Positions 1,881 to 57,308 of a stretch of 64,000 bases of DNA are shown here, one piece after another. The notes under the pieces were generated by a model, which saw nothing but the letters and a program-made list of their open reading frames with translations, ran no database searches and had not been told where the DNA came from. How positions within the stretch are numbered: position 1 is the stretch's first letter; every line of letters begins with the position of its first letter. The stretch comes from Eledone cirrhosa. Taxonomy: Eukaryota. A program made the position numbers and the translations under genes. The stretch spans positions 349,184,001-349,248,000 of the forward strand of contig OZ024743.1 in the NCBI GenBank assembly GCA_964016885.1, in the 5' to 3' direction.

Positions 1881-1973
1881 GTCTAGCAGAAGCAAGGGGA
1901 CAACCGTCTATGCATTTCAGGCTTGACTGGCCTTCGTCAGGACGTTCCCTCCCACTGCTTGTTACTGCTGGAC
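1881..1973 (-). ncRNA. Minimal type I hammerhead ribozyme (canonical core)
   Basis: Minus strand reads cguc-CUGACGA-aggc(cagucaa)gccu-GAAA-ugca-UA^gacg. Stem III is the palindrome AUGCAU, and stem I pairing extends into the flanks (cagcag..aagca..ggga / uccc..ugcuu..cugcu). Confidence 0.88.
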
Positions 1974-5412: not shown

Positions 5413-5489
5413 AAACAGGGGAGATAAAGCTGACAAGACCCTGTTTCGCATTTATTGATGCTTATCAAAGCCAACTACTCCTCCTGTTT
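5413..5489 (-). ncRNA. Hammerhead ribozyme, U3-A8 variant (copy 1)
   Basis: ggcu-UUGAUAA-gcau(caauaa)augc-GAAA-ca(gggucu)ug-UC^agcu. Distal stem I is aaacagg..gag / cuc..ccuguuu. Confidence 0.8.
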
Positions 5490-5790: not shown

Positions 5791-5835
5791 AGCTGACAAG
5801 GCGCTGTTTCGCATTTATTGATGCTTATCAAAGCC
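5791..5835 (-). ncRNA. Hammerhead ribozyme, U3-A8 variant (copy 2)
   Basis: Core and stems identical to copy 1. The two differences fall in loop 3 (gcgccu versus gggucu). Confidence 0.8.
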
Positions 5836-5945
5836 AACTACTCCTCCTATATATATAGTGTATTGCAAAATACACTATATATACATTTATATATATATAT
5901 ATAGCTATTTCAGAGCACCAATTCTTATATATATATATATATATT

Positions 5946-6125
5946 TACAAAATAAAAAATAACCGAGGTGTCCTACACGAGTGAAAGTATAAAGAAAAAA
6001 AGACGATATTGAAAATGCAACTAAAGTCTTATTTTTTAAAATATACAAATATTTATTTGGTTCCTTTACCGGTTTCGCAGTTCTGCTTTTCAAAATATAG
6101 AGTTGAGATGGAGGGTCTGTTTCTT
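5946..6125 (-). mobile_element. Short hammerhead-bearing cassette (same family as 51441-51753)
   Basis: Aligns to the 51.4-51.75 kb element. Contains UUGAAAA-gcag(aa)cugc-GAAA-ccgg-UA^aagg at about 6063-6094, with stem I partly decayed. Confidence 0.8.
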
Positions 6126-6162
6126 TTCTCACACACACACATATATATATATATATTTATAT

Positions 6163-13748: not shown

Positions 13749-14108
13749 GATATTAATAAATGGAAACTATATTTATAAAACCATATTTATTTCATTATAC
13801 ATATTTCAGGGATACCAACTTAAATTATGGTATGCCTTCATCAGACAAAATACAATATATAACAGTTTTACAAATAAGCTTTGACGTACCCTATTAAAAT
13901 GCAACCATTATTTTTGGAAGCCATCCGGATAGTGAGTTGTTTATATTATTTTAATAAGTCATAGTGTTAAGGACAATTAGAAAAAGACGGAGAGAAAGAA
14001 AAAGAAAAGAAAAAGACGGAGAGAGAGAAAGAAACTTGTCGAGTGCTTTATATCTGTTATAAAAATATTTACTTGTTGTATCCCAACAATTTTAAATAGA
14101 ACTTTTGC
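13745..14108 (-). mobile_element. Hammerhead cassette in (TA)n, rearranged copy of the 44.0-44.4 kb element
   Basis: 13745-14030 matches 44127-44400, and 14034-14108 is the reverse complement of 44039-44113. Confidence 0.85.
13795..13848 (-). ncRNA. Hammerhead ribozyme with long stem II
   Basis: CUGAUGA-aggcauacca(uaauuuaagu)ugguaucccu-GAAA-uaug-UA. Stem I is weak. Confidence 0.7.
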
Positions 14109-39522: not shown

Positions 39523-39681
39523 TATTTCTCAGTTCTTGTGCTTTTCAAAAGTAGAATTGAGATGGAGTGTTTGTGCTTTTTCTCGCGTCTGATTGGTGTT
39601 TGAATGTTACTTCTGTTTTACATAGAGAAAAAGTGGCTCGAGATGCTAGGTTTTTAGAAAAGTAGTTAGAAAAATATATAC

Positions 39682-45954: not shown

Positions 45955-46935
45955 CTACATTTTAAATTTATATTTATATTTAAACGTTGAGTTGAATCTA
46001 TGTCTGCAGCAACTGAATAAATTATTCCTTAAATTAAGGGAATTTTTGGACTTTAATATAAAGAATATTTCTTCAATACAGAGATCACAATTTTCTGAAG
46101 AGGAATTAAAAGGAGTAGCTTTTGGAATAATATTCCAAGTCATCGAATATTTAACTTTATCTCGTTTAAGGTCCCATAGTAGGCTAGATAGCGAAGTTGA
46201 AGATTTTTTGTTTGGATCTGTGAAAGAATTTTTATGATTATTGAAGCGAAATTTTAATCTGTAGAGGTAGAACCGACATAGTTAAATGAATTTAAATTAG
46301 TTTTAACATTACAATTGTACACTACATTTTTAGCTAAGCAGTTTTTACTTAACGGACAGTTAGATTTATTTCTACAGTTACAGTTATTCAATTGAATATT
46401 GCTTGGGTTATTATTGGTATTTTGGTTAGGTTTTAAGTTTCTATTATTAATTCTATTAATATTTTGTGCTAAATGTTTGGTGGACGAGTAAGTTAATTTT
46501 ATAGTATGTCTATTAAAAATTGAGTAATATTTATGTGTTCTAGGGAAGCGTTTGTCAAGAGCTTTAAAGAATAGTTTAGCAATAGGGGTTTTAATATTTA
46601 GTGAGAAAGGGGGAGCAAACCATAATATATTTCTAGTTCTATTTCTTTTTCGGCTTTTGGAATTATTGTAATGTTTTCTATTATAGTTGTTAAAGTTGTT
46701 ACCATAATTAAAATTGTTATTGTTTTGGTTAGTTTGCTTATTATTATTATTATCGATGTATTTAATTTTATTTCTATATCCAGCTCTACCTAACGCTTCG
46801 TTGTAATACTGCGCTTTTTTATCAAATATATTTTTATTAGATGAAATTCTTGAAATTCGTTCTTGAACAGAGTTCACTATAGTATTTCTAACAGATCTGG
46901 GGTGATTAGAGTTAAAATTAACATAGCTGAGAATA
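45955..46935 (-). pseudogene. 5'-truncated Penelope-like element (thumb, Cys motif, GIY-YIG), one frameshift near 46255
   Basis: SNHPRS, ILWFAPPFS, IFNRHTIKLTYS, CNCR..CPL..C..NVVY..YVGST, then RFNNHKNSF..LS..LWDLK..CDLC.EE..LN.R..CCRH. Confidence 0.92.
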
Positions 46936-48691
46936 GACTCCCTGATGACGTAAGGCTTCTCTATGGATACACTCCGTAACCATATTTATCCCCTTACAAA
47001 AACTAATTAGTTGGAGTGAAATTTTAGTAAGTAAGTCAATTTTCATAACTTTCTTATTTACGTCTTTCATATAATTGTTCTGCATCCCCTTGCATAGAAC
47101 CACAAAGTTACTAAGACAAAACATATATATTTGCTAGCATAGGTATGCATCTGTATACATATGTCGGTAGATATACTTATTCTTTATATATATATATATA
47201 TACAGAGAGAGAGAGAGAGAAAGTGGAATTGGAAATACCAGGAAAAGACATTTGATCAGGATGTCACATCGTGGGAACGAACCTGGATCCTAGTGATTAT
47301 GAAGTGAAACTCTTAACCATTCGACCATTGCTCTGTATGTTGTATCTTCATTGTATCTTTCACAATTGTATTTAGAAACCCTTATTCAGGAAAATGGTGG
47401 CTATTAGCCAGAACATAAGCTGTGTCACTGACTCAACTACACAAGAGTTACCAAAGACTTACATGAGACTTTAACTAAAAATAACTCTGATTGAACAAAG
47501 ATATGATCAAAATTATTCCTAGCACGACCATGGCAATGTTCCTCTATTGTGCATATTATTTCTTACCAAGGTCTAAAGATTGACATGATTACATATTGTA
47601 ATATACTATACAGTGGACCCGCATCTTACAAGATCAATTAATATCCCAACGACATTATTAATAATCACGTATGTTCATGATTCTTAAGTAAAATTGCGTC
47701 TGTACGTCTTAGAAATCTTCTGAAGTGCATGATACCGTTAGTGTTTAAATTTTATCTCTAGCTGATGAGGTTGTATCTGAAAAAGGTCGTTAAGAAATTT
47801 GCAGATCTTTTCGTGTGTTTCTTAAACATTTTCTAAATGCGTATTTTCCAAACCGCACTATTTAATGTCGAGTAAGATGTGTCCCTACAATACAGACAAA
47901 ATTTATGCAGAAATACCATAGTAAACAGTAAAGAAGTCATTAAGTGTGTGAAATCTCAGGCTTTCAAATATGATTTATCTTACAATACATTGTTTGTCAT
48001 CAAATTTATTCAGACTAGGCACAATATCTGCAGAATTGTTGCGATGAGATTATAACCCTTTTCAAATAATGTTACAGGTTTATGTAAAATGGAATATGTT
48101 AACCCATGAATCGAAACGAAGTTGCAAGTTCAACGCCTCGAAATTATTATTTTTATTCTTACTCAACATGAAATGTCACCACATATATAATCGTATATTC
48201 AACATCTAAAAGATACGAGTAGGTGAAAAAGGAAAACATTAAAGAGAAAAAAAAATTGAATGTACGAACAAAAAAGAAGACGAAAAATACTGAAAAACAT
48301 ATGGACTGCCTTATGTAGCAGATAATTCCACAATAAATTCTTAGTTGGTTTTTTTATTATTATGAAACAAGATTTACTTTGTAATTTCTTTTCTTATTTT
48401 TATCCATTGTCTTTTATCTTTTTTATAATTTTGTTTCTCGTTCAAGATTTTATGGTGTAATAATGTCCCTATAACACTAACAAAAAATAAACAAACAACG
48501 AATCTAAGATCATTAACCAACATGATGTATCATAGATAAAGTATTGTATAATGACTCATGTTATCAAGGCAAGAAACTTTGAAACTCAATTTTAAAAAGT
48601 AACAATTAAATTTTAAACATCTTATGAGGTGAGCTTAAAACATAGGAATATTTGACACCCGGAAGTGTCTTGTATAGTTATGTAGTAATCC

Positions 48692-50276: not shown

Positions 50277-50390
50277 ATATATATATATATATATATATAT
50301 TCGGAAAATATTGATTTGGTATAAACAGGAGTAAGCAGGAGAAAGCTCTCAACAATCGTTGTTTTTGTTACGATGGAGAATTTTATAAAA

Positions 50391-51383
50391 ATAATAAAAT
50401 AAGATGCTGAGGTTACATATATTGTTTAATCATAATAATTATTTCTACGGTTCTCCATGCAATCGAGATGTCCTTCATGCATTTGCTGTTGATTATGAGA
50501 ACGGTTTCCTCAGATGAAGATCGATATATTTGATATGGCTTTGCAGGAAAACACACATCCTAATGCCTGTACGCCCAGCATACATATGAGTTCCTTGAAT
50601 GGTTTGCAAGCCGTCGCATTTGTTAGAAAAAGCTATCACCCCAAAAAGTCGAAAACAACGAAGAACCGTGTGTAACCAAAACCGAGTAGACAGTTGAAGG
50701 AACACAAGGAGCTCTGAGGGGGGTGGGGTTATACATTTAGTTGACGACCACCCATCGACAACAACAACAACGACAACTACAACAACAACAACATCAAACC
50801 TTCGAGCATAGTTATCCTCACTGGTCGCAATAGTCGTGCTGATACCATCATCGTATTGACAACAACAACTAAAACAACAGCTACAGTAAAAAACACTTAC
50901 AACGACAAAACAAACAAACGACAACCGTACGACTATTGCGACCAGTGTGGATAACTTTGGTCGGCGGTTTGATGTTATTGTCATTGTTGTTGTTGTCATT
51001 GTCGTTGTCGTTGTTGTTGTTGTCAATAGGTGGTCGTCAACTAAATGTATACCCCACCCCCTCAGAGCTCCTTGTGTTCCTTCAGCTGTCTACTGCGTTT
51101 TGGTTACACACGGTTCTTCGTTCTTTTCGCCTTTTTGGGGTGATAGCTTTTTCTAACAAGGGCGACGGCTTGCAAACCATTCAAGGAACTCATATGTATG
51201 CTGGGCGTACAGGCATTAGGATGTGTGTTTTTCCTGCAAAGCCATATCAAATACATCGATCTTCATCTGAGGAAACCGTTCTCATAATCAACAGCAAATG
51301 CATAAAGGATATCTCGATTGCATGGAGAACCGTAGAATTAATTATTATGATTAAACGATATATGTAACCTCAGCATCTTATTT

Positions 51384-51389
<6 letters not shown>
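50391..51389. repeat. Large fold-back inverted repeat (arms about 50391-50838 and 50929-51389)
   Basis: About 450-bp arms, reflected in mirror-image ORFs 50493..51026(-) and 50936..51367(+). Ends at (TA)n. Confidence 0.95.
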
Positions 51390-51447
<58 letters not shown>

Positions 51448-51516
51448 AAAAAGAGATGAAATCGAAAATGCAACTGGAGTCTTATTTTTTTTTTAAATAT
51501 ATATATTTATTTGGTT

Positions 51517-51554
51517 CCTTTACCGGTTTCGCAGTTCTTCTGCTTTTCAAAAGG
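51517..51554 (-). ncRNA. Minimal hammerhead, U3-A8 variant (left arm)
   Basis: ccuu-UUGAAAA-gcag(aagaa)cugc-GAAA-ccgg-UA^aagg. Confidence 0.85.
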
Positions 51555-51596
51555 TGAGTTGAGATGGAGGGTCTGTGGTTTCTCCATCTCAACACA

Positions 51597-51634
51597 CCTT
51601 TTGAAAAGCAGAAGAACTGCGAAACCGGTAAAGG
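51597..51634 (+). ncRNA. Minimal hammerhead, U3-A8 variant (right arm)
   Basis: CCTT-TTGAAAA-GCAG(AAGAA)CTGC-GAAA-CCGG-TA^AAGG. Perfect stems I and II, palindromic stem III ACCGGU. Confidence 0.85.
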
Positions 51635-51765
51635 AACCAAATAAATATATATATTTTTTAAAAAAATAAGACTCCAGTTGCATTTTCGATTTCATCTCTT
51701 TTTCTTTATACTTTCACTCGTGTAGGACACCTCGGTTATTTTTCATTTTGTAAAAAAATCCTCAC

Positions 51766-51806
<41 letters not shown>

Positions 51807-54937: not shown

Positions 54938-55762
54938 TTAAGTTAGCCATGTCAGCTCATTTCTCTCAGCCCGGTTGTTAAGTGGGGGTCTGAGGTTCTT
55001 AATAACAAGTGCTTCCTTTATCCTTAAGGATCCGATGCTGCGTTCAGTCGCTAGGACTGTGACCAAGGGTCTACCCTGTGGGTTTCCGCATTTAAGGATG
55101 TGTTTACGGAAGGAAGATGCGTTGGTGTTGATATGTTCCTTGATACGAACATGTAGGGGTCGGATGGTGCTACCTATGTAAAACTTGTTACATTTATCGC
55201 ATTGAATCTTATATACGACATAGGTGCGTAGGCAATCTGCCCCCCGTATCGGGCAGTTGCTGAGGGAACACGTCCCATCTGACTCGTCGGGTTTGTTGGA
55301 GAGGCATCTTCGCAGCGAAGGTCCTGTGTGGGCCAAATGTATGTCAAGTCCCTCCGTCCGTATGGCCCTGAGGATGGCGTTCGTGGTATATTCACTCAGG
55401 TGGGGGATTTTAAAGAAGCACCTGCTATTATTTAATTTTCTAGTGGGTGTCTGTCTATTGGGTCTGGGGTCTCTAATTCCGTTAATCAGTCGCTTGGGAT
55501 AACCATTAGATCTGAGTAGATTACGGAATTGCGTGGTATGGGGGAGACCACCCATCGGGTCGCTGCATCTGTTAGTGATCCGTGTCAGTTCATTTAGGAC
55601 ATAGCCTCTCTTAGCGTTGTTGGGGAGGGCTGAGTTATAATGCACAAATAAGTCCTTGCACGCTGCTTTGCGGTAGAAGGTGGTGTTTATGTCTCCTTCT
55701 TCCGAGATGTTGATACGGAAGTCGAGGAGGGCGAGTGACCCGTCTTCTCCTGGGTGTTCGAT
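54938..55762 (-). mobile_element. 5'-truncated Penelope-like element with an uninterrupted frame (RT end, thumb, GIY-YIG)
   Basis: IEHP..SLALLDFRI..TTFYRK..FVHYNSALP..NGYP..VVYKIQCDKCNKFYIGSTIRPLHVRIKEH..LRIKEALVI..RPPLN. Open for 274 codons. Confidence 0.95.
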
Positions 55763-57308
55763 ATTCTTAGTTAATTAATATTCATATTTTGTTGTTTCTT
55801 TAGTCGTAAGTGTGATGGAATTTCATTGTGTAACATAACGTTACAGTAAGTAGTCCGCACGCTCTGAGTTACATACGTACTTTACATGGAACGTGAAAAA
55901 GTAAAAACCGTTAGGGTATCCATTAAGGCGTTTATAAGTGTTAATTTGATATACCAAGATGTTCAGATATGCTTGGGCGTAATTGCTAATGCAATCAGTT
56001 GCTATACCACATGTGGTTTGACACACAAATGAGTAGTATATATTAGACTTACCACGTAGAGTGTTTGTGAGATTTCGATAGATTATGACGTTCACAGACA
56101 ATTTGGTGTAAATGGTAATGTGGTTCTTTTATGTAAGACAAATACATTATTTAATTCCTGGAGATGATTCTGTTAACTTTTTCAATCTCATATTGTTTAA
56201 TTTCTATCTCCTCCTTGGTTAGACCATCGAAAATCTATTTAGAGTGAAGCCCTGTCTGTGTATTCCTTCTAGCCCAAAGAGACTTGTATATAGTATCATA
56301 CACTCATATTATCTAATTATCATTAATCTAACTTATCTTAACATTAATGATAACGTCAATATAAATTCTACTCAGAGTCACCCACTCTCAATATATATAT
56401 TCCTTCAGGATTTATGGAGTTAGTTTACAATTTGACTTGCACTTACGATACATTTAATTATTATTTGTCTACATTTGTTTAAAATGTAATTATAATTTTA
56501 ACATCATTTAATCTTTACCGTTCACCTGCCCTACTGTACACTTGTATATACACTAATCCTGAAACGTAATCTCTTTAAAATTATTCACAAAAATTAATAT
56601 CATTCTACACAATCCTTCTCCTTTAGTGTCATGTCGACCATTTTATAAGCATGTAAATCATTCTGTTTTACCGCCAGCTAAGTAGCAATCTTTTCAACAT
56701 TTCGTTATAAATTATTCAGTTTAGAATATTCTAAAAAAGCTTGAAAACTCCACCAACTGCTTCTACTCCAGCACGTATGTCCTCAACAGTTTCCACCCCC
56801 ATGCCATTACATTAATTCTAAAACAATGAATAATCTTACTGCCAGTGGGTTAGCATCTTAACCGCCTCGAATTCTCCCAACTCAACGAACGGAAACTCTT
56901 TACCCTCTACACTTAATATATACAACAATAACACTAATTTCACAACCAACTCTAGCACCAATATTACGAGAACCAAAATCCATTCACAATTACAACTACC
57001 AGCACCACAATCTTCACTATAACAACCACCATTTCACTAACATTAACATGACCAACACCAATAACAGCATCACTCCAACAATTAGTACAAACGTTATCCC
57101 CAATATCCCTGTCACTACTAAAACTCTTGAAGCCCACAACACCAACATCATTTATTAATCTTACCTGTACGTAGTAGCTAAAATCTATCAGAAATAGTTG
57201 CCAAATGCCCTTCAGATAATACTCTGCCGTCTTACATGCTGGGTAATGTAGTTCTGGGTTCTCGTAAAAAAAAAATTGCACGGACGCGGTGGTTATGCGT
57301 TTCATTAT

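What the first reader, a model, noticed from the sequence alone, without database searches (positions are those of the whole stretch)
51441..51753. Palindromic cassette with an intact hammerhead on each strand
Seen: near-identical inverted arms (51441-51568 and 51582-51710) between two (TA)n tracts, each containing CCUU-UUGAAAA-GCAG..CUGC-GAAA-CCGG-UA^AAGG. A transcript from either strand contains one ribozyme preceded by its own antisense copy. Inference: the long hairpin would compete with ribozyme folding, giving a self-silencing or switchable ribozyme. The layout also matches the inverted 5' pLTR known from PLE insertions. A single-arm relative exists at 5946-6125.
Basis: partly seen in the sequence, partly recalled or inferred. 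Interest (0 to 1): 0.75.

Follow-up and report, generated by a model that had tools for sequence, protein, structure and literature searches.

The report
Back-to-back Penelope retroelement stubs
This mirror-image insert is two short end-pieces of an abundant Penelope-like jumping gene joined head to head, likely a dead by-product of copying the start of the element's RNA from both sides of a DNA cut rather than a regulated ribozyme switch.

Summary
Two 97%-identical inverted arms (51441-51569, 51582-51710) lie in (TA)n, each with a U3-A8 minimal type I hammerhead; the right arm runs on as a 62-nt tail to 51772. Both arms are the ribozyme end of a young Penelope-like element (400-aa ORF1, 775-aa RT-GIY-YIG frame), with 10,077 exact hammerhead matches in the genome. 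Head-to-head pairs are routine: 44 of them in 78 sampled loci. All 39 classifiable pairs (15 more in a second set) have one tailed and one untailed arm. 47 of 130 arms start within 6 nt of a point 30 nt below a TATAAAA box, a likely RNA start. Best reading: both cut DNA ends primed cDNA at two fixed internal sites, both cDNAs ran to the RNA's 5' end and were joined. A switch is not supported: the cassette lacks the TATA box, is predicted to fold as one -208 kcal/mol hairpin, and the ribozyme is a dimer type with no same-strand partner. Opposite-strand hammerhead pairs, U3-A8 and one-sided tails are published; this scan reported the same layout and mechanism before, in this genome and others. 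The exact junction was not found in other reads; no RNA data.

The parts
51387..51444 (.). (TA)n target tract, left; shared with the neighbouring two-arm insert of another family
   Evidence: 29 copies, 100%
51441..51581 (-). Untailed arm: element positions about -34 (or -42 through the microhomology) to +108 relative to hammerhead U3
   Evidence: L153 is this locus
51517..51554 (-). Minimal type I hammerhead, U3-A8 core, palindromic helix III; predicted cut between 51521 and 51520
51579..51589 (.). Head-to-head junction; imperfect 8-9-nt microhomology between the reverse complement of the element's first bases (-42 to -34) and positions -19 to -12
   Evidence: four near-identical independent junctions at L154-L157
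51582..51772 (+). Tailed arm: element positions -19 to about +170
51597..51634 (+). Minimal type I hammerhead, U3-A8 core, ACCGGT at 51624-51629; predicted cut between 51630 and 51631
51711..51772 (+). 62-nt tail on this arm only; in tandem copies it runs on into the 5' leader and ORF1
51773..51799 (.). (TA)n target tract, right; no target-site duplication can be read inside the repeat
5944..6133 (-). Older single-arm copy of the same family; helix I reduced to 2 bp, loop II shortened, ends at about +150

Best explanation
The cassette is two 5'-truncated copies of the ribozyme-bearing end of a young Penelope-like retroelement, joined head to head in a (TA)n tract, and it likely arose when both ends of the cut target primed reverse transcription on the element's RNA. 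Shown: family identity, copy number, two fixed 3' ends 62 nt apart, one tail per pair, the pile-up of 5' ends 30 nt below a TATAAAA box, and a unique junction with microhomology. Inferred: (1) the RNA starts at about -42; (2) the enzyme starts copying at +108 on one target strand and at +170 on the other, as the two internal start sites shown in vitro for the anole element would predict; (3) when it uses the start sites near the RNA's 5' end it runs off after about 150 and 210 nt; (4) the two cDNAs anneal by short microhomology and are filled in. The product lacks the TATA box, has no reading frame, and its ribozymes would be silent if read through. The hammerhead matters, if at all, in the parent element's RNA, as a dimer-type ribozyme.
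For: Arms match the pLTR next to RT-GIY-YIG frames at 95-97% in most of 20 full-length loci, same strand as the ORF (Pfam GIY-YIG above cut-off, RVT_1 E=1.3e-6 just below). 10,077 exact 39-nt matches, control 0. 39 of 39 classifiable pairs are tailed plus untailed, against 41% expected from unpaired arms (29 tailed, 12 untailed); second set 15 of 17, 2 unclassifiable, none tail-tail or short-short. In 9 of 37 pairs the untailed arm reaches more than 5 nt further 5' than the tailed arm, so neither arm is a sub-copy of the other; the window's cassette is of this kind. 47 of 130 arms start at -43 to -38, 3 at -49 to -44, 7 at -139 to -50; TATAAAA starts at -72. 10,049 matches to a 21-mer just inside that point, 2,130 to the 37-mer crossing it (part of the drop is mismatch loss). 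Arms share subfamily alleles at 239 of 254 sites (94%) against 56% shuffled, so both come from one source. No excess of copies starting at the ribozyme cut site: 26 against 24 at a matched control site. Literature: two internal RT start sites delimiting the tail, both strands cut and extended, unprocessed RNA as substrate (PMC11167929); inverted 5' copy and one-sided tail (PMC8557442, PMC3846280); opposite-strand minimal hammerheads and U3-A8 (PMC4209133).
Against: No RNA data: the RNA start, the template strand and cleavage are untested. L081 has two tailed arms facing apart with 3.3 kb of other DNA between; I left it out as two insertions (39 of 40 if counted). L058 holds a unit with two untailed ends, but its junction duplicates the neighbouring unit's. 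Five of 44 pairs could not be classified. Shared alleles also fit fold-back copying, gene conversion or one dominant source at a time. The sample was drawn through an exact hammerhead match in the first 41 Mb of one chromosome, so arms truncated below the ribozyme are under-counted. The 5' extents of the 37 pairs were read by hand from alignments; 7 of the 44 pairs were not entered. The exact junction is not confirmed by reads.
Confidence: 0.8

Rival explanations
1. Same element, but the palindrome comes from self-priming (fold-back) of one template, for example an antisense RNA, with the two ends then trimmed by the endonuclease at +108 and +170.
For: Proposed in PMC3846280 for head-to-head palindromes; PMC8557442 ascribes the tail to endonuclease resolution (passages). 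Arms share alleles (94%) and 18 of 37 pairs have 5' ends within 5 nt of each other.
Against: Needs trimming to explain the 9 of 37 pairs where each arm holds sequence the other lacks. Unpaired arms show the same two 3' ends and the same 5' pile-up below a sense-strand TATA box. L132 has different subfamily alleles on its two arms. PMC11167929 shows the two ends as RT start sites on sense RNA.
Confidence: 0.12
2. The cassette is a functional self-silencing or switchable ribozyme, or a selected source of double-stranded RNA.
For: Both hammerheads are sequence-complete; a read-through RNA is predicted to form a 129-bp hairpin. About 1,100 such short two-ribozyme cassettes are extrapolated genome-wide (11 pairs under 200 bp among the first 100 matches), so some may be transcribed and feed small-RNA or editing pathways.
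Against: No alternative fold is predicted (helix probabilities 0.0). The TATA box is absent. The junction is unique, so the cassette is not itself amplified. Copies show no sparing of the ribozyme. At most one A-to-G change per arm in 132 arms, read on the sense strand.
Confidence: 0.04
3. The fold-back is a chimeric read or assembly artefact.
For: No read or contig spanning this exact junction was found in the 7 runs laid, and the A at 51594 was seen in none of the records laid.
Against: Each arm holds sequence the other lacks and both outer ends fall on the family's two fixed ends, which a fold-back chimera cannot produce. The arms differ at 4 of 129 positions. Contigs of an independent short-read run hold other head-to-head junctions of this family (loose ends at 51581). 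The runs are reduced-representation or collapsed contigs of other samples, so a private insertion would be missed.
Confidence: 0.04

Closest known systems
Insertion units of C-terminal-endonuclease Penelope-like elements (PMC8557442 passages and Fig. 2 legend; PMC3846280 passages)
   Same: pLTR with hammerhead, adjacent inverted 5'-truncated copy, tail on one end, (TA)n targets, partial tandems, microhomology junctions; L197 shows the full textbook layout.
   Different: Here both copies are cut down to 140-190 nt, the tail is 62 nt rather than 30-40, and 'often one end' is 54 of 54 classifiable pairs.
Minimal hammerheads of metazoan PLEs (PMC4209133, parts 1-2 of 4 read)
   Same: Type I, short helix I, palindromic helix III, U3-A8 covariation, pairs on opposite strands about 100-700 bp apart, most copies solitary; monomers inactive and dimers weak in vitro.
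   Different: Helix II is only 4 bp and has no unpaired base before it; this family was not assayed.
PAc, Poseidon element of the green anole (PMC11167929, main text read)
   Same: Two internal start points that delimit the tail; AT-rich target; ribozyme cleavage not needed for insertion.
   Different: In PAc the start sites lie inside the ORF; here both lie upstream of the ORF1 start codon. That paper does not treat inverted arms or run-off at the RNA's 5' end in the passages found.
LINE-1 twin priming
   Same: Two target ends prime on the template and the cDNAs join by microhomology, giving a 5' inversion.
   Different: In L1 the two pieces cover different parts of the RNA; here both arms cover the same 3' segment and differ by a fixed tail.
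Animal non-LTR retrozymes (bioRxiv 10.64898/2026.07.22.740005, part 1 of 5 read)
   Same: Short non-coding type I hammerhead repeats related to PLE pLTRs.
   Different: Retrozymes are head-to-tail tandem units; this is a head-to-head pair of stubs of an autonomous element, with no unit of its own.

Membership tests
Endonuclease-positive Penelope-like element (parent family) | Reverse transcriptase followed by a C-terminal GIY-YIG endonuclease in one frame | tested here: met
   775-aa frame: RVT_1 residues 295-441 (E 1.3e-6, 0.9 bit under the cut-off), GIY-YIG 682-772 (above cut-off)
Endonuclease-positive Penelope-like element (parent family) | pLTR from partial tandems, carrying a hammerhead on the sense strand | tested here: met
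   L057, L059, L065, L067 and L197
Endonuclease-positive Penelope-like element (parent family) | Inverted 5'-truncated copy and one-sided tail | tested here: met
Endonuclease-positive Penelope-like element (parent family) | RT phylogeny with PLE and telomerase references | not tested
   No named reference proteins were on hand; no solved-structure relative at E<=1
Neptune or Nematis clade | CX2-5CxxC motif between RT and endonuclease, and CCHH in the endonuclease | tested here: met
   C-X4-C-X2-C precedes the GIY-YIG domain; two Cys between the GIY and YIG motifs and two later His (motif from PMC8557442)
Neptune or Nematis clade | Placement in one of the two clades by RT tree | not tested
   'Neptune-type' here rests on the linker motif and the (TA)n bias only
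Minimal type I hammerhead | Core with 3-8 pair, GAAA, NUH site, helices I and II, palindromic helix III | tested here: met
   U3-A8 is a natural, active covariation (PMC3088659); a sister family (3 copies) keeps U3-A8 and ACCGGT with compensatory changes in helices I and II but reads GCAA for GAAA
Minimal type I hammerhead | Self-cleavage (as dimer) | not testable with these tools
   Only folding energies: ACCGGU self-duplex -8.3 kcal/mol; monomer helix I probability about 0.01
Non-LTR retrozyme | Head-to-tail tandem units, each with a hammerhead, without coding capacity of the family | tested here: not met
   Arms are head to head and are pieces of a coding element
Regulatory ribozyme switch | Two alternative folds or a trigger, and conservation of the cassette | tested here: not met
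   Single predicted fold; junction unique; no sparing of the ribozyme in copies. Expression untested.

The most novel reading that the evidence does not exclude
The thousands of stubs are a genomic record of the Penelope insertion mechanism: a two-headed enzyme primes from both target strands at two fixed sites 62 nt apart on one sense, unspliced, uncleaved RNA, and the short cDNAs run off the capped 5' end like retroviral strong-stop DNA. This would explain inverted pLTRs, the one-sided tail and the mass of solo hammerheads together, and would map the element's transcription start from DNA alone.
Probability: 0.65. Interest if true: 0.5.

Novelty: new member of a known kind. Interest (0 to 1): 0.25.

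Why it matters
The locus itself is an ordinary transposon remnant. Its value is as a sample of a young, very large family with many intact reading frames, in which the rules of insertion can be counted: one tail per pair, arms that are not sub-copies of each other, a sharp 5' limit below a TATA box, and no trace of cleaved RNA as template. These counts bear on how Penelope-like elements make inverted repeats, which the papers read leave open, and they name positions (-42, +108, +170) for direct tests. Earlier reports of this scan reach the same reading on other families, so this adds one more family, not a new idea. If read through by host transcripts, about a thousand such 100-150-bp hairpins could supply double-stranded RNA; that is untested.

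Tried and rejected
Rfam scan: only microRNA models hitting microsatellites or the hairpin among the 150 of 166 rows shown; no hammerhead. Run search: no RNA holder listed, so expression, splicing, editing and cleavage could not be examined; this blank is no evidence either way. Read laying on the cassette (X1, X4, X19, X20) and on the junction (X1, X2, X3, X21): no record spans the junction; inconclusive. Cleaved RNA as template: 26 copies join (TA)n at the cut site against 24 at a control site with the same TA microhomology; rejected as a main route, counting only copies joined directly to (TA)n. A 5'-leader intron (acceptor-like AG at about +123, donor-like GT at the cut site): no spliced genomic copy for that donor (0 matches); uninformative because these elements keep introns. 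The cassette as a self-amplifying unit: rejected (1 exact junction, 4 with one mismatch). The T/A difference between the arms as a two-template sign: the A allele is rare (2 of 118 arms), so a later point change is as likely. Structure search by sequence: no match. The Lunse et al. paper on dimer cleavage is not held; only its title and a review's account were seen. Searches for a published twin-priming or run-off account of PLE inverted arms found none, in a library that lacks most subscription papers; supplements were not read and may bear on this.

Full report
Observation. The window holds inverted arms at 51441-51569 and 51582-51710, 129 nt and 97% complementary, between (TA)n tracts. Each carries a type I hammerhead with a U3-A8 core, 4-bp helices I and II and the palindrome ACCGGT as helix III, at 51601 (+) and 51550 (-). 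A tightened descriptor finds 5 such motifs in the window and 1 in 40 dinucleotide shuffles. The right arm continues 62 nt beyond the symmetric part, to 51772. Positions below are counted from U3 of the hammerhead (0).

Family. A DNA search of the own genome (3.0 Gb) returned its 40 best candidates at 94-100% identity. Several extend upstream into a GIY-YIG frame. A search with that protein gave 22,948 first-look candidates, 150 scored at 95-100% identity, many in a 775-aa open frame. In 20 loci chosen for full-length or paired frames the same hammerhead lies about 1.05 kb after the frame, on its strand. Pfam finds GIY-YIG above its cut-off and RVT_1 at E 1.3e-6, just under its cut-off. A C-X4-C-X2-C motif precedes the endonuclease, the mark of Neptune and Nematis elements (PMC8557442, passages); no tree was built. 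In tandem copies the tail runs on into a leader and a 400-aa ORF1 that overlaps the RT frame in the -1 phase at a U UUU UUA heptamer (6 of 7 copies with ORF1 of 400-401 aa). The 39-nt hammerhead occurs 10,077 times exactly, its reversed control 0 times.

How common the layout is. Among the first 100 matches listed (first 41 Mb of one chromosome) I count 19 head-to-head pairs within 5 kb, 11 of them under 200 bp apart; extrapolated, that is about 1,100 short cassettes. I fetched all 100 matches as 78 loci. They hold 44 head-to-head pairs and 44 unpaired arms. 3' ends fall on two points, +108 and about +170, nearly always followed by (TA)n. Of 44 pairs 39 are one tailed plus one untailed arm, 5 have one damaged end, and none is tail-tail or short-short; unpaired arms (29 tailed, 12 untailed) predict 41% mixed pairs. 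I left out L081, two tailed arms with 3.3 kb of other DNA between; counted, it makes 39 of 40. A second set of 17 pairs picked from other pattern lists gave 15 mixed and 2 unclassifiable. One unit with two untailed ends (L058) repeats its neighbour's junction and is likely a later duplication.

The 5' limit. Of 130 arms 47 begin at -43 to -38 and 17 at -37 to -27; only 3 begin at -49 to -44 and 7 at -139 to -50, while 40 reach beyond -140. Genome-wide a 21-mer just inside this limit has 10,049 matches and the 37-mer that crosses it 2,130; mismatch loss explains only part of that drop. TATAAAA begins at -72, 30 nt above the A at -42, the usual TATA-to-start spacing (own knowledge). Penelope transcripts are known to start in the pLTR, from a TATA-less promoter in Drosophila virilis (PMC2377424, passages), and TATA plus initiator motifs were noted in rotifer pLTRs (PMC3846280, passages). 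I infer that -42 is the RNA's 5' end; no RNA data could test this. Copies are not enriched for starting at the ribozyme cut site (26 against 24 at a matched site), in line with unprocessed RNA being the template in vitro (PMC11167929).

One template, two primings. Arms of a pair agree at 239 of 254 subfamily-diagnostic sites, against 56% (maximum 74%) in 2,000 shuffles; one pair, L132, disagrees at three adjacent sites. In 9 of 37 pairs entered, the untailed arm reaches more than 5 nt further 5' than the tailed one, in 10 the reverse, in 18 they are within 5 nt. Where the untailed arm is longer at the 5' side, each arm holds sequence the other lacks, so simple fold-back copying or a chimeric read cannot build it. 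The window's cassette is such a case: the left arm reaches -34 or -42, the right arm only -19 but carries the tail. Its junction uses an imperfect 8-9-nt match between the reverse complement of -42 to -34 and -19 to -12; four other loci used the same match independently, with the tail on either side, and the exact junction is unique.

Mechanism. The anole element cuts and extends both target strands and starts copying at two internal sites whose spacing is the tail (PMC11167929, main text). Applied here: one target end primes at +108, the other at +170; both cDNAs run towards the RNA's 5' end, stop at or before -42, anneal by microhomology and are filled in. An RNA from a tandem copy holds the start region near its 5' end and again at its 3' end, which would give short stubs and long arms respectively. 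All of this is inference from genomic anatomy. The main rival is self-priming on an antisense template with endonuclease trimming (PMC3846280; PMC8557442).

The switch idea. A transcript through the cassette is predicted to fold into one hairpin of -208 kcal/mol with helix I and II probabilities of 0.0 on both strands; an arm alone forms helix I with probability about 0.01. Ribozymes of this type are inactive as monomers and weak as dimers (PMC4209133; review PMC6765202), and the two copies here lie on opposite strands, so neither can partner the other in one RNA. The cassette begins below the TATA box. In 76 arms from 37 loci not picked through the hammerhead sequence, changes inside it are as frequent as in neighbouring sequence (0.87% against 1.0%; the two other flanks read 0.26%, biased by how loci were picked, and 0.4%). 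At family level the motif does look maintained: a sister family keeps U3-A8 and the palindrome with compensatory changes in both helices (3 copies). So silence on read-through is a predicted side effect, not a function.

Artefact check. No record in 7 runs spans this junction, so the locus is unconfirmed by reads. Independent short-read contigs do hold other head-to-head junctions of this family (loose ends at 51581), and the anatomy is not that of a chimera.

What is known. Opposite-strand pairs of minimal hammerheads 100-700 bp apart and the U3-A8 variant are described for PLEs (PMC4209133); U3-A8 is a natural active covariation (PMC3088659, one passage); the inverted 5' copy and the tail at one end are standard (PMC8557442; PMC3846280). 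Searches for a published twin-priming or run-off account found none. This scan's earlier notes report the one-tail rule, twin priming and the TATA-linked 5' limit for other families in this and other genomes; none covers this sequence. I had the family, the one-tail rule and the 5' pile-up before the first look-up (note) and the TATA spacing before the second; those notes are unchecked and are not independent support.

Verdict. Real feature, new member of a known kind, not a regulatory cassette. Interest 0.25; the mechanistic reading would deserve about 0.5 if shown.

Noticed in passing
window 50284-51386: A second, unrelated two-arm insert in the same (TA)n tract: arms of about 470 bp, each with an outward-pointing hammerhead-like motif (canonical CUGAGGA core, long helix II, palindromic helix III); only the left arm has a tail of about 100 nt. 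1,216 first-look candidates in the genome.
   Followed up: partly
L057:4042-7478, L059:3880-7316: The parent element has a 400-aa ORF1 overlapping the RT-endonuclease frame in the -1 phase at a U UUU UUA heptamer followed by a predicted stem-loop: a likely programmed frameshift. PMC8557442 Fig. 1 legend mentions a frameshifted ORF1 in PLEs, but I could not see for which clades.
   Followed up: partly
window 51711-51725 and L057:3843-4042: A polypyrimidine tract and AG inside the tail look like a 3' splice site about 75 nt before the ORF1 start, so the hammerhead's 3' half may lie in a leader intron; no spliced genomic copy was found for the one donor tested.
   Followed up: partly
window 5431-5475 and 5794-5838 (-); 1905-1945 (-); 13795-13850 (-): Further hammerhead motifs of other families: two more with a U3-A8 core and two with a canonical core.
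   Followed up: no
window 39525-39670 (-): An old copy (81%) of the same family, broken inside the hammerhead by another insertion.
   Followed up: partly
L104:4671-4793, L117:4546-4668, L147:2330-2452: A sister family with compensatory changes in helices I and II, the same palindrome and U3-A8, but GCAA in place of GAAA in all 3 copies seen.
   Followed up: partly
window 46254-46985 (-) and 54938-55774 (-): Two further frames that read like the RT-thumb and GIY-YIG ends of other Penelope-like families (judged by eye, not scanned).
   Followed up: no
L033 (G000:C2:56840146-56843000, -): A 952-aa open frame of another Penelope-like element with a long asparagine-rich N-terminal stretch, recalling the N-rich inserts of rotifer elements.
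   Followed up: no
window 51548-51559 (+): The antisense strand of helix I in the younger subfamily reads as a perfect 5' splice-site consensus; the older subfamily lacks it. Possibly chance.
   Followed up: no
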